In this document: piece after piece, positions 12,001-18,000 of the stretch
How positions within the stretch are numbered: position 1 is the stretch's first letter
Layout of the letters: the number at the start of each line of letters is the position of its first letter
Source: Planctomycetota bacterium
Lineage (GTDB): Bacteria > Planctomycetota > GCA-002687715 > DRQF01
Reading direction: 5' to 3'
DNA length: 21,657 nt
NCBI GenBank assembly: GCA_027001995.1
Contig: JALTLO010000050.1
Location: 1-21,657, forward strand
Position numbers: made by a program

Positions 12001-15000
12001 TTAATTCTGGATCCTGTCGACGGGACACGGGGCCTCCTCTACAGCAAAAGGTCAGCTTGGATTCTGAGTGCCATAGCCCCAAACATGAATTGCAAGCAAC
12101 CCACATTGCAACAGATTGAGATTGCCTTACAAACTGAGATTCCCACCATGCGATCCAACCTATCCGATCAATTGCTGGCAATCAGAGGCCAAGGAGTTCA
12201 GGCAAGAACCCAGAACCTCGAAAACGGCACTTCCAAGAAGTTTCGTCCACAACCCACCTCCTCGCCCACCATCAAAGGCGGCTTTAGTACCGTTTGCCGC
12301 TTCTTCCCCCCTGGTCGAAAGGAACTTGCTGATTTAGACGATGTCATGCATCAGGAAATCCTGGGAGCCGCCCCGGGCCGCGCCCTGGTCTTCGAAGACC
12401 AATACCTTTCTACTGGAGGCCAAGTCTATCAGTTAGCCATGGGCAAAGACCGTTTCGTCGCAGATCTAAGAGGCACCCTCAATCAATACCGCCGAGACTG
12501 TGGAAAAGCAGAGGCCCTGACTTGCCATCCTTACGACATCTGCACCTTCTTGGTCGCAACTGAGCTGGGCGTCATGATCACGATGCCTGACGGTTCGCCC
12601 CTCAACTATCCTTTAGACACCTTAAGCCAAGTTTCCTGGTTGGGATTCGCCAATCAAGAGATCTTTGAAGAAGTGTACCCAACTTTGACCAAGTTGATTC
12701 CCCAACACTTGAGGTATCGCGACTTTTCTCCGGATTGAGTACCATCTGACCCGTCGGGGCTAAGGCCAAAGATTTGTTTGAGGAGATTGGTCCGTGGTTG
12801 CAAAGAGAATCATCATTGTTGGCGGAGGATTTGCGGGAGTAAAATGCGCCCGAGTCCTCTCCAAGAAGCCCAAGGGTCACGACACCGAGATTGTCATTTT
12901 CAATCGGGAGAACCATATGGTTTTCCACCCCATGCTGGCAGAAGTCGCTGGGGGATCTCTCAATCCAGATTCCGTAGCTGCGCCCCTACGACAAATGCTG
13001 CCTGGGATCCGTTGCCGAACCGAAGAAGTTCACAGTATCGATATAGAGCAAAAGAAGGTCGTCTTCAAGTCTTACGACGAGCGCCTCTTAAGTCTTCCCT
13101 TTGATCAACTCGTCCTTGCTTGCGGCGGCGATGTCAATCTCTCCATGGTACCAGGGATGGCCGACCACGCCTTTGCTATGAAAACAGTGGGCGATGCTAT
13201 CGCCCTCCGAGCCCACGTCATGGAGCAGTTAGAGCGAGCCGAAGTCTGCGAGGATGAGACAAAACGCAAGTGGTTCTTGTCTTTCGTCATCGTCGGTGGT
13301 GGCTACAGTGGTGTCGAGGTCGCCGGAGAGATCAACGACTTGGCTCGATCAAGCGCGCGGTATTTCCAAAACTTCAAGAAGGACGATATCCAAGTCACTC
13401 TGATCCATTCCCGTGACCAATTGCTCCCAGAAATTGGTGAATCTCTACGAGAATTTACCGCCGACAAAATGCGTGACTCCGGTGTCACCGTGACCCTCAA
13501 CGCGCGTGCTGCCTTGGCGACTCATACGGGGATTACTCTCAAAGACGACAGGGAAATTCGAGGTGCCACTATCGTCTGCACCATTGGCACACAACCAGCT
13601 GCAGTCTTGCAAAAGCTCGACGTTGACAAAGAGCGAGGCCGACTCAAGACCAGAGCCGATATGCAACTTGAAGCTCACGACGGCATCTGGGCCATTGGAG
13701 ATTGTGCTATTGTTATAAATGGCCATGACGGCAAGCCATCCCCTCCCACTGGACAGTTTGCCGAGCGCCAAGGAAAGCAAGTGGCATTCAACATCGCTCG
13801 AACCTTGAGTGGCAAAACAACGAAACCTTTCAGCTTCAAACCGGTTGGCCAACTTTGCGCCATCGGGGGACACAAAGCAGTCGCAGAAATCATGGGCATT
13901 CGTCTTTCTGGATTTCTCGCCTGGTGCTTGTGGCGGGCCATCTATCTCATGAAGCTGCCAAGTTGGTCCCGGAGGATCAAGGCATGTTTCGACTGGAGTT
14001 GGGAACTCGTATTCGGCAGAGATTTAGCCCACTTGAAAACAGATACGACACAAAGGGTGAGTAACGCCCATTTCAAGAACGGTGATGTCATATTCTCGGA
14101 AGGCGACCCGGCAACCAACTTCTACGTCATCGAAACGGGAGAAGTAGAAGTTCTTGTTGGTGACGGACAAGTCATTGCCACTATGAGCCCAGGTGATTTT
14201 TTTGGGGAGATGGCACTCTTGAACGATGAACCACGAAACGCGACCATACGGGCAAAAGGTGACGTCGAAGTTGTTGTCATGGGACGCTACGTCTTCGAAC
14301 AGATTTCGGAATCGATGACACCACTCAAGGATCTCTTAGCCAGGGCGGTGAAAGATCGCACCCGAGCCAAAAGCCAAGACTGAAGGCCCGACTCAGGACT
14401 ATGGCGTGTCTGTCTCGTTACCAGGAAGAGTGATTTCTTTGACCACCCGATAGGTCTCCACATTCAGTTCCTTGCCTTTGAGGGATTTCTTACCCAATGG
14501 AACAAATTCGAAGAGATCCTTGCATGCTTCGTAGGTGGCCTCCCCAACGATCACCTCTCCTTCTTTCGACACCGATGATTCCAGGCGACTCGCAATATTG
14601 ACGGCGTCACCAATCACCGTGTAGTCCCGACGTTTAGGCGACCCAATATCACCCACAACTACGGGCCCCGTATTGATCCCCACGCGCATACCAACGGGAG
14701 TCGGAAAACCCATGTCGCGATTTAGTTCTTCCAGACCTTTTTGCATCAACAAACCAGCCCGGATGGCTCGGGCTGCATGATCATCTTGTACTACTGGAGC
14801 ACCAAAGAAAGCCATCATTCCGTCCCCCATGTATTTATCGAGAGTTCCTTCAAACAAGAAAACCGCGTCCGTGAGGCGTTCGAAGATAGCATTCAGGAGT
14901 TGAGCGACCTCTTGAGGCTCCATGTGTTCGCTGATGGAAGTAAAGCCAATGAGGTCAGAGAAGACCATCGTGACAGTTCTCTCTTCAGCAATCATATCCA

Positions 15001-18000
15001 CGATAGGCTGAGATAAAGAAGCGTCCCGCACAATACGATCCACCACCGCAGGAGAATTATACTTTTCCAACCGTTCTCGCTTACGTTGTTCTCGAGCGAA
15101 TTCATCTTCCAAAGAGCGACGCTCTGTAGCGATAGCAGCAAAAATAGATAAGGTGGAAAGCAGACGAAGTTGTTCTTTAGTAAAGCTCTTTCTCGCCGAG
15201 GTGCTGTCGCAATAGATAACACCGGTGACGCAACCGTGATTGTACATCGGAGCACACATGGCGGAGGAAATCTGCATCGCCATGATGGATGCTTCTGCTC
15301 CGAAACGTTCGTCCGCAAGAACATCACTCACCAAGATTGCTTGTTGTTTCGTGATCACTTCGTTGACGATCGATTCGCTGATTCGGATTTGATCGGCGCT
15401 GCCGTCACGGGACTTGAATACCCGAGGCTTGAGGCCATCTTCTTCTGTGTAAGTCGCGATAACGCCCCGTTCAATAGGAAGGTTTTGAAAAACAAGGTCA
15501 AGAACTTTCTCAAACACCTCCTCCAAGTTGCCACCGGATAACATCGCTTGAGCAGCTTGATTGAATAGAGACACAGCCCATGCAGCGGCTTTATTACCGT
15601 CGTCCGGCTTCGCTGTTTTCGTTTCGATGACACTTGAGACGACACTCAAGTCGGCCATGTTAAGAATAGCCGTCTTGTTTCTCTTTTCCTTTGTCCGATC
15701 AAATTGAACTTGGTGAACTGCCGAAGACAAAGCATTCGGTAGCTCGAAACTTGCACGCAACTCCCCGAGTCCAATGACGTCGCCATTTTCTAACTCACAC
15801 TTGACAATGGGTTTCTCGTTGACACTGGTCCCGTTGGCACTGCCCATGTCGAAAATCACCCATTTTGCACCATCTTTGAAGATGGTGGCATGTTGCCGTG
15901 AGATTCTCTCTTCTGGAATCACCAAGTCGCTACTGGGAGACCGACCAATGACCACACGCTCTTTTCTCAGACGCACTGTCTTTGGCTTCCCAGCGATCTG
16001 GTAAGAGACTATGAAACCGTCTTGATCATCTGACATGAGGTCACTCCCCGAATTGCATGCAACTGACAAGAACATAAGTCATTTCCCAATATGGATCAAC
16101 GACCAAACAAACTGTGCCTGTGGGGAATGGTCTTCATGGAAAGAAACGGCAAAGAATGTTGCCATAGGCCAGGAGCGAACTGTTTACTTCCTCTTGCCCG
16201 CCTCGTTCATGAAACTATGATCGATGTGTGAAAATGCTCCCTATAGAAGACTGAGGACAACAGTCCATGGGGCTTCTAATCAGAGCACAATATCGCCAGA
16301 GGAGCGGCGCGGTCGTGGAGGACGCGGGCTCCCCTTCTCCGTGTAGAAGCGGTCATTTGGGAATGGTTGAAACTGAAAGATAATCTGCCCTTCCGGCGCC
16401 ATCGCCATCGCCATCTGCCTTGCCAGTCACCACCCCAATGTCGGCGCAAACCGAAAAGACGAGCCGACCTATCCCCGTCTCCTGACGGTTGCCTACCCGC
16501 AAATCAACGTCGTCTGACTCTTTGCACCCTACGGGCCCGACTTTGGCGGAAGAACCCGAGCCCAGAGAGGAACTCCGCTTCGCTCCCTTCCTCCCTGGGA
16601 CCCTGAGGCCTTTCGGATCATGAAGCACTTGTAATTCACCATGTACAAGACTAAAGTCAGAGACGAAGTTTATCTTATGTTGGTGTCCACCAACTCGGGG
16701 CAAGATTAAGAGACAAGAATCATGGTTAACATCAGCGTGGAATACACCGGATCACTGAGTTGCACCGCAACACACGGCCCAAGTGGTGGCACATTGACCA
16801 CCGATGCCCCCGTCGATAACCAAGGTCTTGGACGTACTTTTTCTCCCACAGATCTCTTGGTGACGGCCTTAGGCAGTTGCATGGCTACGTTGATGGGAAT
16901 CTATGCAGAGCGCCACGATCTCAACATAGAAGGACTCTCCGTCAAACTGGAGAAACACATGCAAGCAGATCCGCGGCGAATTGGGAGAATCCCTATTGAA
17001 ATCCAAGTCCCCATCGCTCTCAACGATCGACACCGCCAGGGAATCGAAACCGCAGCCCAGCATTGTCCGGTAAAGAAAAGCCTTCATCCTGATATTGACT
17101 TGGCAGTGAGTTTCCTTTATCCAGAAGATCGTTAAGGAATGGATCGCCTCAAAGTATTGGTAACGGGTTCCACGGGATTTGTTGGCAGTCATTTGATCAC
17201 GCGTCTCACCGCCAGAGACACTTGGGTTCTCTTGGCCGATCACTTGGACGGCAAGCGCCAATTCGATCTTGCCGTTCCGGGGGAATTGTCAAGCTTCGTC
17301 GAAAGGCATCAACCTGATGTCATCATCCACACCGCCGCGATCTCGTCCATCGCTGCCTGCGCTGAAAACACGCACCTTGCGGATGCAGTCAACACCCGAG
17401 CGCTCCAGGAGCTGGCCGATATTGCCAAGAGGATCAATGGGCGCATCATCCATTTGTCGACGGATCAAGTCTTTGATGGTCATGATGCTCCCTATTCAGA
17501 GGAAGACAAGACGTCGCCCCTTCACCACTACGGCGTTACCAAATTAGCCGCAGAAACAATCCTGACGGCAAGTCAAACGAATACCGTCATCTTGCGCCCC
17601 ACCCTCATCTATGGAAATGCCCGGAGCTTCCCCCAATCTGCTTCCGAATCCATCCGTCAAGCCGTAGAACACAATCGTCCCATCCACCTTTTCATNNNNN
17701 NNNNNGTCTTGATGACTTGGTAACCTGCATCGCTTATTTTATTTCCGCTGGCAAGAAAGGCCTCTATCACGTCGCCGGCCCTGAGAAGTTCTCCCGCTTT
17801 CAATTCGGCGAAGCCGTCTGTGACGCTTTGGGATTAGGAAAAGATCAATTGCGCCCCACCAAGCTCAAAGGGAGCTCATTCGCAACAGAACGCCCTGCCA
17901 ACTTGTGCCTCACAACCGACAAGCTATCCCAGACCATGTCTTGGCAACCACGCACCGTTGCCACGATATTGCAACAAAATTCATCACAGTGAAGACATAG

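What a model noticed while it worked through the whole genome (the two positions that open the first line are those of the whole stretch)
12794..16036. Type II NADH dehydrogenase fused to a cyclic-nucleotide-binding domain, next to a FHA-GAF nucleotide cyclase
g00962 (529 aa) is an NDH-2 (Pyr_redox_2 + NDH2_C) with a C-terminal cNMP-binding domain (aa 426-506). The neighbouring gene g00963 encodes a FHA-GAF-class III nucleotide cyclase. This predicts direct allosteric control of a respiratory NADH:quinone oxidoreductase by cAMP/cGMP, a mode of control not described for NDH-2.
Evidence so far: Pfam Pyr_redox_2 5-327 (3e-48), NDH2_C 352-410 (1e-12), cNMP_binding 426-506 (3e-25). In 151 Planctomycetota sampled, 8 matched at E<=1e-80; 4 of the 7 others (two of the same family, two of other families; 37-66% identity) extend through the cNMP domain (to residue 515-526), 3 stop at residue ~415. 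g00963: FHA, GAF, Guanylate_cyc. Full-text search 'type II NADH dehydrogenase' + 'cyclic nucleotide-binding domain': 0 papers. In the same genome g03658 joins two cNMP-binding domains to a 4Fe-4S ferredoxin inside a multihaem cytochrome cluster (C182; call 91).
(Added by a program. Inside this text positions count along the whole contig: contig position 1 is position 1 of the stretch shown here. "Call 12" and the like, gene names such as g00115 and contig names such as C1 are that model's own, and its searches are not shown. The text may have been shortened before it was handed on; [...] marks where a part breaks off. The agent that wrote the report below was given it as the finding of a first reader that could run no searches.)

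Follow-up and report, generated by a model that had tools for sequence, protein, structure and literature searches.

The report
Respiratory enzyme with cyclic-AMP sensor domain
A bacterial respiratory enzyme carries its own sensor domain for the signal molecule cyclic AMP and sits beside a gene for an enzyme that makes that signal, which suggests an untested way of switching respiration directly.

Summary
Confirmed. 12794-14383(+) encodes one 529-aa frame: NDH-2 core plus a cNMP-binding domain with an intact phosphate-binding cassette. It belongs to an old, patchily spread clade found in all five groups sampled. All 119 closest homologues are fused; 89 add a CBS pair. The scan noted this architecture before on other DNA (e1-930622).

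New here: the nicotinamide site is atypical (His-Ser-Arg replaces the NADH-type acid; the WxxG tryptophan is lost), so NADPH use is plausible but unproven. The neighbour is an adenylyl-type cyclase, convergent rather than co-transcribed. It is adjacent in 8 of 8 family genomes, 4 of which add a class II phosphodiesterase-like gene.

Against a general link: the whole block is syntenic; outside the family 3 of 27 genomes have a cyclase within 11 kb, a fresh sample gave 0 of 31 loci, 7 of 34 fusion genomes show no class III cyclase, and many distant copies have degenerate cassettes.

Best reading (0.5): a cAMP-gated, non-pumping NAD(P)H:quinone reductase acting as an overflow valve beside complex I. 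No paper was found in ten full-text searches. No ligand or activity data exist here.

The parts
12780..12785 (+). Ribosome-binding-site-like GAGGAG, 8 nt before the GTG start
   Evidence: read from the sequence
12794..14383 (+). Gene for the 529-aa NDH-2 / cNMP-binding-domain fusion
   Evidence: AlphaFold2 model mean pLDDT 84.5, pTM 0.71
12803..14029 (+). NDH-2 core (aa 4-412): FAD and NAD(P)H Rossmann domains and C-terminal membrane domain
   Evidence: Pfam; best PDB sequence hits are NDH-2s; the ten best Foldseek hits are NDH-2 or YjlD entries, TM 0.82-0.89 of target
13406..13414 (+). His205-Ser206-Arg207 in place of the acidic residue of NADH-type NDH-2s
   Evidence: aligns to E/D of three solved NDH-2s; H in 120 of 120 close homologues
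13577..13588 (+). CTIG (aa 262-265) in place of the WxxG motif
   Evidence: alignment; W in 1 of 106 fused against 63 of 86 unfused sequences
13751..13768 (+). Quinone-site motif GQFAER (aa 320-325), a variant of AQxAxR
   Evidence: motif definition in PMC5299459
13913..14011 (+). Two membrane-facing helices (aa 374-387, 391-406); no transmembrane segment
   Evidence: DSSP on the model; hydrophobic moments 0.28 and 0.49, highest 19-residue hydropathy 1.36
14069..14311 (+). cNMP-binding domain (aa 426-506), followed by a predicted C-helix (aa 509-528, low confidence)
14201..14245 (+). Phosphate-binding cassette, aa 470-484, with G471, E472, R481
   Evidence: matches the canonical 'Other_bacterial' consensus of PMC2246266 Table 1
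14384..14398 (.). 15-bp gap between the two convergent stop codons; no terminator-like site found there
14399..16036 (-). FHA-GAF-class III adenylyl-type cyclase, 545 aa (longest frame starts at 16075)
14444..14983 (-). Cyclase catalytic domain with both metal Asp, substrate Lys and Thr, and transition-state Asn/Arg
   Evidence: the roles of these positions are recalled from the class III cyclase literature
15128..15529 (-). GAF domain of the cyclase
15764..15955 (-). FHA domain of the cyclase

Best explanation
The gene encodes a monotopic membrane flavoenzyme of the NDH-2 family that passes electrons from NAD(P)H, probably with a leaning to NADPH, to the quinone pool without pumping protons. 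Its C-terminal cNMP domain binds cAMP and changes activity, most likely by releasing an inhibited state, so the enzyme works as a signal-gated overflow valve beside the energy-conserving complex I. In this family the convergent FHA-GAF adenylyl cyclase is a likely cAMP source, and in half of the family genomes a phosphodiesterase-like gene completes a make-break-sense set. Shown from sequence: fusion, fold, catalytic residues, intact cassette, intact cyclase, gene order. Inferred: quinone reduction (about 0.85), cNMP binding (about 0.75), coupling to catalysis (about 0.7), NADPH preference (about 0.55), direction of the switch (by analogy only), and that this cyclase is the partner (about 0.5).
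For: Core: best PDB hits by sequence and by fold are NDH-2s; both GxGxxG motifs, E175, D182, D303, G352/G358/G373 and W380/Y384 are in 120 of 120 close homologues. Sensor: E472 120 of 120, R481 117 of 120; pN 0.13-0.16 against pS about 0.8 in the cNMP domain in two same-genus pairs, like the core; one clade holds 129 of 130 fused sequences in a 214-sequence tree (support 0.996), recovered on a 61-row subsample by IQ-TREE quick search (SH-aLRT 97). Genome: three cNMP-domain proteins and two class III cyclases found, complex I genes and PntB; no second NDH-2 found with this query. Context: cyclase adjacent in 8 of 8 family genomes; PDEase_II-like gene directly upstream of it in 4 of 8; the same PDE plus FHA-GAF-cyclase pair lies about 9 kb from a fusion gene in G792, of another phylum; a BLUF-cyclase follows a divergent fusion in G311. 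NADPH: acid replaced by His with a basic residue at +1/+2 in 97 of 120; zwf/gnd/tal/tkt genes in the same-strand run in 3 of 30 outside loci.
Against: No binding or activity data. The genes are convergent. The whole carB to osmC block is syntenic in the family, so adjacency is one inherited event. A fresh sample of 31 loci (24 with a detectable cNMP domain) had no cyclase, phosphodiesterase or pentose-phosphate gene within about 9 kb. 7 of 34 fusion genomes had no class III cyclase, three of them single-contig, and control genomes without the fusion had one as often (10 of 16, 14 of 16). The cassette is degenerate in 27 of 68 distant representatives and, read by eye, in 14 of 24 fresh loci. 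The window's own genome lacks the phosphodiesterase and zwf by these searches (92% complete). His205 also occurs in 37 of 62 unfused relatives, so it is not tied to the sensor; a yeast NDH-2 with an uncharged residue there still used only NADH (PMC11670749). WxxG is not met.
Confidence: 0.5

Rival explanations
1. The cNMP domain binds a different ligand or none. It is a hinge or scaffold kept from the longer NDH-2/cNMP/CBS form, where the CBS pair would sense adenylates; the window's protein, having lost CBS, is constitutive.
For: 89 of 120 close homologues have CBS. All 7 fusion genomes without a class III cyclase are CBS-type. Cassette degenerate in 27 of 68 distant representatives and 14 of 24 fresh loci. 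About 20 sequences inside the fused clade lack a detectable cNMP domain.
Against: This subclade keeps E and R in 31 of 31 CBS-less close homologues; purifying selection on the domain; 17 of 17 genomes with a CBS-less fusion had a class III cyclase (kin are not independent).
Confidence: 0.22
2. The enzyme is cNMP-regulated but is not a respiratory entry point. It is an NADPH-dependent reductase for another acceptor, such as a biosynthetic or toxic quinone or a multihaem cytochrome chain.
For: Altered nicotinamide site and quinone motif. c-type cytochrome genes lie directly upstream in L007, L162, L163 and L166. Distant members are fused to DoxX, ApbA, MIP, AhpC, FHA or TPR domains. NADPH-using NDH-2 homologues with other cellular roles exist (S. 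aureus NDH-2B, PMC11302666).
Against: Quinone-site Gln, the Trp/Tyr pair and the membrane helices are kept; no consistent partner gene across 30 plus 31 loci.
Confidence: 0.18
3. On the partner question only: the cyclase is a neighbour by inherited gene order and is not functionally dedicated to this enzyme.
For: Convergent layout; unrelated neighbours (nadA-PALP, cyclase-osmC) are just as stable; a 42% identical cyclase in G013 sits beside a multihaem cluster with no NDH-2 gene in the 16 kb read; 0 of 31 in the fresh sample.
Against: 3 of 27 outside genomes have a cyclase within 11 kb against 0.3 expected (threshold chosen after seeing the data); in the order, 13 of 14 genomes outside the family lack a class III cyclase and none showed the fusion.
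Confidence: 0.45

Closest known systems
Bacterial type II NADH:quinone oxidoreductases (mycobacterial NDH-2 9MQY, S. aureus 5NA1, C. thermarum 4NWZ)
   Same: Fold (TM 0.82-0.89 of target), both dinucleotide motifs, catalytic Glu and Asp, C-terminal membrane helices.
   Different: C-terminal cNMP domain; His-Ser-Arg for the NADH-type acid; CxxG for WxxG; GQxAxR for AQxAxQ. Fused forms were excluded from the family analysis in PMC5299459 (passages).
EF-hand NAD(P)H dehydrogenases of plants and fungi
   Same: An NDH-2 with a built-in second-messenger sensor (mentioned in PMC11670749, section 8; wider literature recalled).
   Different: The sensor is a Ca2+ EF-hand inside the core (position recalled), in eukaryotes; here it is a C-terminal cNMP domain in bacteria.
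'Bact_Pyrredox' family of Kannan et al. 2007 (PMC2246266) and cNMP-thioredoxin reductase fusions (PMC6544261)
   Same: cNMP domain joined to a pyridine-nucleotide flavoenzyme; the 2007 paper already suggests that NADH-related processes may involve such domains.
   Different: Bact_Pyrredox has tandem cNMP domains and another cassette consensus; the thioredoxin reductase has an N-terminal domain and a disulfide centre, and the passages seen report no nucleotide test. Neither is described as NDH-2. The 2007 sequence lists could not be read.
cAMP-gated enzymes with a fused cNMP domain (acetyltransferase Pat 4OLL, EAL enzyme Bd1971 6HQ4)
   Same: The cNMP domain is similar by sequence; they are the model for direct allosteric control (mechanism recalled).
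   Different: Unrelated catalytic domains; soluble signalling enzymes, not electron entry points.
FHA-GAF class III adenylyl cyclases (cyanobacterial CyaD/Cya1 type; names recalled)
   Same: Domain order and adenylyl-type catalytic residues.
   Different: No link to an NDH-2 was found in the searches; the cyclase itself is an ordinary widespread type.

Membership tests
NDH-2 (features of PMC5299459) | Two GxGxxG motifs, the second followed by Glu | tested here: met
   G10/G12/G15 and G168/G170/G173/E175, each 120 of 120
NDH-2 (features of PMC5299459) | FAD-site Asp (D302) and carboxylate wire to a proton-conducting X379/X383 | tested here: met
   D303, E179, D182, W380, Y384 each 120 of 120
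NDH-2 (features of PMC5299459) | C-terminal domain with three glycines and two amphipathic helices | tested here: met
   G352, G358, G373; NDH2_C hit; helices 374-387 and 391-406
NDH-2 (features of PMC5299459) | Quinone motif AQxAxQ, AQxAxR or APxAxQ | tested here: inconclusive
   GQFAER: Gly for the first Ala in 117 of 120 close homologues; distant fused members mostly have AQxAxR
NDH-2 (features of PMC5299459) | WxxG motif near the adenine of NADH (Trp 99% conserved) | tested here: not met
   C262; Trp in 1 of 106 fused sequences. It works like an NDH-2 but is not a canonical member.
NADH-specific NDH-2 | Acidic residue at the end of the second Rossmann strand | tested here: not met
   H205; acidic in 0 of 120 close homologues and 6 of 6 canonical outgroup sequences
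NDH-2 | NAD(P)H:quinone activity and membrane association | not testable with these tools
   needs purified enzyme
Canonical cNMP-binding domain | Beta barrel with flanking helices | tested here: met
   Pfam 8.9e-25; model strands 422-497, helices 498-528; PKA/PKG hits
Canonical cNMP-binding domain | Cassette Gly-Glu ... Arg-x-Ala | tested here: met
   G471, E472, R481, A483
Canonical cNMP-binding domain | Binding of cAMP or cGMP and coupling to an output | not testable with these tools
   N482 after the Arg does not separate cAMP from cGMP; it varies N/S/T across the family
Bact_Pyrredox (PMC2246266) | Tandem cNMP domains with their own cassette consensus | tested here: not met
   one cNMP domain; cassette fits 'Other_bacterial'
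Class III adenylyl cyclase (neighbour) | Two metal Asp, substrate Lys and Asp/Thr, transition-state Asn and Arg | tested here: met
   present in the window and in the 8 family loci; residue roles recalled
Co-transcribed cyclase-effector operon | Same strand, shared transcript | tested here: not met
   convergent in the window and in 8 of 8 family genomes

The most novel reading that the evidence does not exclude
A bacterial respiratory entry enzyme is switched directly by cAMP: an NADPH-leaning NDH-2 that, with the adjacent FHA-GAF cyclase and (in relatives) a class II phosphodiesterase, forms a three-gene make-break-sense module, part of a wider scheme in which these bacteria put cNMP sensors on electron-transfer proteins (also the two-cNMP ferredoxin of the multihaem cluster), with CBS-bearing members adding energy-charge control.
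Probability: 0.3. Interest if true: 0.8.

Novelty: new variant of a known kind. Interest (0 to 1): 0.58.

Why it matters
In bacteria cAMP is mostly known to shape respiration through transcription (recalled). A sensor fused to a non-pumping dehydrogenase would let a cell open or close an energy-spilling route within seconds. It would be a bacterial counterpart of the Ca2+-regulated NDH-2s and the first natural regulatory domain on a bacterial NDH-2 that I could find. It is a single soluble-expressible gene with a simple assay, so the question is directly testable. It also explains what cAMP may do in a genome where only three cNMP-domain proteins were found, two of them on redox proteins.

Tried and rejected
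Complex prediction of core against cNMP domain with FAD and cAMP: no answer, neither support nor evidence against. RNA runs: no RNA holder listed. Promoter and terminator scan: 2 and 4 sites, no more than shuffles, none in the gap between the genes. Operon reading: rejected, the genes are convergent. Broken orthologue: rejected for G006. Phosphodiesterase remnant between cyclase and osmC: nothing better than E 0.7. General cyclase linkage: suggested by 3 of 27, not repeated in 31 fresh loci, with positive controls working. General pentose-phosphate linkage: 3 of 30, then 0 of 31. Genome-wide co-occurrence with cyclases does not separate fusion genomes (27 of 34) from controls (24 of 32 in two phyla). 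The pattern scan of genome contigs was swamped by other cNMP proteins: 9 of 80 loci were full-length fusions. The careful IQ-TREE run did not finish; the quick tree is cited. One gap value (L095) is an off-frame artefact and was not used. Papers: ten searches gave no paper on an NDH-2 with a cNMP domain; the 2016 family survey by Marreiros et al. is not held and may mention fused forms; supplements of PMC2246266 could not be read and those of the bioRxiv preprint are closed.
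Full report
Observation. The window holds one open frame at 12794-14383(+), 529 aa, and a convergent gene on the minus strand ending at 14399, with 15 bp between the stop codons. Pfam gives Pyr_redox_2, NDH2_C and cNMP_binding for the first, and FHA, GAF and Guanylate_cyc for the second. The cyclase probably starts at 16036. Composition is flat across the window.

The enzyme core. The best PDB hits by sequence are NDH-2s of a mycobacterium, S. aureus and C. thermarum. The AlphaFold2 model (pLDDT 84.5, pTM 0.71, linker 415-420 under 50) has NDH-2 or YjlD entries as its ten best Foldseek hits. 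Against the features listed in PMC5299459 (passages), both glycine motifs, E175, E179, D182, D303, three C-terminal glycines and W380/Y384 are present in 120 of 120 close homologues. Two features differ. WxxG is CTIG: Trp occurs in 1 of 106 fused and 63 of 86 unfused sequences. The acidic residue linked to NADH specificity (PMC11670749, passages and section 8) is His205, followed by Ser-Arg. This resembles NADP-binding sites (recalled). It is only a hint: His is also in 37 of 62 unfused relatives, and the same paper shows an enzyme with an uncharged residue that used NADH only.

The sensor. The cassette keeps G471, E472 (120 of 120) and R481 (117 of 120) and fits the canonical bacterial consensus in PMC2246266 (part 1 of section 5). 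In two same-genus pairs pN is 0.13-0.16 against pS of about 0.8, as in the core. Further out it decays: Glu and Arg are both kept in 41 of 68 fused representatives and 34 of 38 genome loci, and by eye in 10 of 24 loci of the last sample.

The family. All 120 listed hits carry the cNMP domain (only the 8000 best candidates were scored) and 89 also carry CBS. Fused matches: 11 of 301 genomes of the own phylum, 11 of 201 in the phylum of a Nitrospira record, 8 of 301 in that of a Bryobacter record, 5 of 301 in the class of a Pseudomonadota record and 20 of 301 in the phylum of an Opitutaceae record (25 of 26 matches fetched). These are floors. I scanned 79 of the 150 representatives against Pfam. 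The tree used 214 of 312 core sequences (close homologues thinned, duplicates dropped): one clade of 149 leaves, support 0.996, holds 129 of 130 fused sequences, with CBS confined to a subclade. A 61-row IQ-TREE quick tree, built without two long-branch rows, recovers it (SH-aLRT 97). Core and sensor identities correlate (Spearman 0.42, permutation maximum 0.14). The simplest history is one old fusion, later gain of CBS, and many losses; the window's protein lost CBS, which family member G004 keeps. A single origin is not formally proven.

The cyclase. It has both metal aspartates, the substrate Lys and Thr and the Asn/Arg pair (roles recalled), so it is adenylyl-type. It is tail-to-tail with the fusion in 7 of 7 family genomes with a full match and in G008, where the contig ends inside the cNMP domain. 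In 4 of these 8 a PDEase_II-like gene lies directly upstream of the cyclase; it was not found in the window's genome. The control weakens this: carB, fadD, nadA, PALP, FKBP and osmC are syntenic too, though in 9 loci from other families of the order only the carB-fadD-nadA part is seen. Outside the family, 1 of 30 loci had a cyclase within about 6 kb and 3 of 27 genomes within 11 kb, against 0.3 expected (post hoc). One of the three, G792, has the same phosphodiesterase and FHA-GAF cyclase pair. A fresh sample gave 0 of 31 loci, with positive controls working. Class III cyclases were found in 27 of 34 fusion genomes and in 24 of 32 controls from two phyla; other cyclase classes were not searched.

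Genome setting. Three cNMP-domain proteins and two class III cyclases were found. Complex I genes and PntB are present, NqrB/RnfD and zwf were not found (genome 92% complete). No other NDH-2 matched the core. A non-pumping dehydrogenase beside complex I wastes energy if always on, which makes gating sensible (inference).

Mechanism. Most likely cAMP binds the cassette, the C-helix closes, and restraint on the core is released, as in other cNMP-fused enzymes (recalled). Electrons then flow from NAD(P)H to quinone without proton pumping. How the sensor contacts the core is open. Rivals are a non-cNMP or scaffold role, a non-respiratory acceptor, and an incidental neighbour.

Prior knowledge. Ten full-text searches found no paper on this fusion. 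A 2025 NDH-2 phylogeny has no occurrence of 'cyclic', 'cNMP', 'CBS' or 'fusion' (bioRxiv 10.1101/2025.10.14.682086, passages). PMC2246266 lists a different cNMP-flavoenzyme family and PMC6544261 (passages) a cNMP-thioredoxin reductase. PMC11302666 (passages) shows an NADPH-using NDH-2. PMC13282843 and PMC13332983 (passages) were not relevant. The 2016 family survey was not seen. The ESM Atlas holds several automatic clusters with this architecture. The scan itself noted the NDH-2/cNMP/CBS design before; its remark that the ligand may not be cAMP fits degenerate copies, not this one.

Verdict. Real, conserved and apparently unstudied; a new variant of NDH-2 rather than a new kind of system. Interest 0.58. 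The three-gene cAMP module has probability about 0.3 and would deserve 0.8.

Noticed in passing
L174:4931-8779 (same DNA as L008): A 900-aa DoxX-like membrane / degenerate NDH-2 / intact cNMP protein, lacking the catalytic Glu, followed on the same strand by a BLUF-adenylyl-cyclase gene: a possible light to cAMP to pseudo-enzyme unit.
   Followed up: partly
L182:1-9575 (G000:C182): LVIVD, FHA, multihaem cytochrome, membrane protein, two-cNMP/4Fe-4S protein and FHA-multihaem genes in one run; in G013 a related cluster lies beside the phosphodiesterase-like gene and FHA-GAF cyclase (L187), and in G792 the LVIVD multihaem gene lies between a fusion gene and that pair (L186).
   Followed up: partly
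L007:4311-7611 and L162:4077-7611: Multihaem cytochrome c, stand-alone cNMP-domain protein, cytochrome c and the NDH-2/cNMP gene in one same-strand run.
   Followed up: partly
L005:4826-12086, L154:102-11324, L162:6001-13599: Fusion gene inside or at the head of pentose-phosphate gene runs (tal, gnd, zwf, tkt, glucokinase, pgi).
   Followed up: yes
P0133, P0140, P0150, P0154, P0156, P0157, P0164, P0167, P0177, P0209: Further architectures on the NDH-2/cNMP core: FHA (one to three), TPR, DoxX, aquaporin-like MIP, AhpC/TSA and ketopantoate-reductase-like ApbA.
   Followed up: no
L210-L216: A group whose cassette has Trp where the Arg should be, suggesting another ligand or loss of binding.
   Followed up: no
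window:11683-12738: Inositol-monophosphatase-like gene below the Pfam cut-off, present in 3 of 7 family loci read in full.
   Followed up: no
window:17139-17992: RmlD-like gene interrupted by a short run of unknown bases near 17700; the second half is in another frame, probably an assembly gap.
   Followed up: no
L183:3194-4378 (G000:C45): The genome's third cNMP-domain protein (cNMP plus a weak DUF4388 match) has a non-canonical cassette.
   Followed up: no
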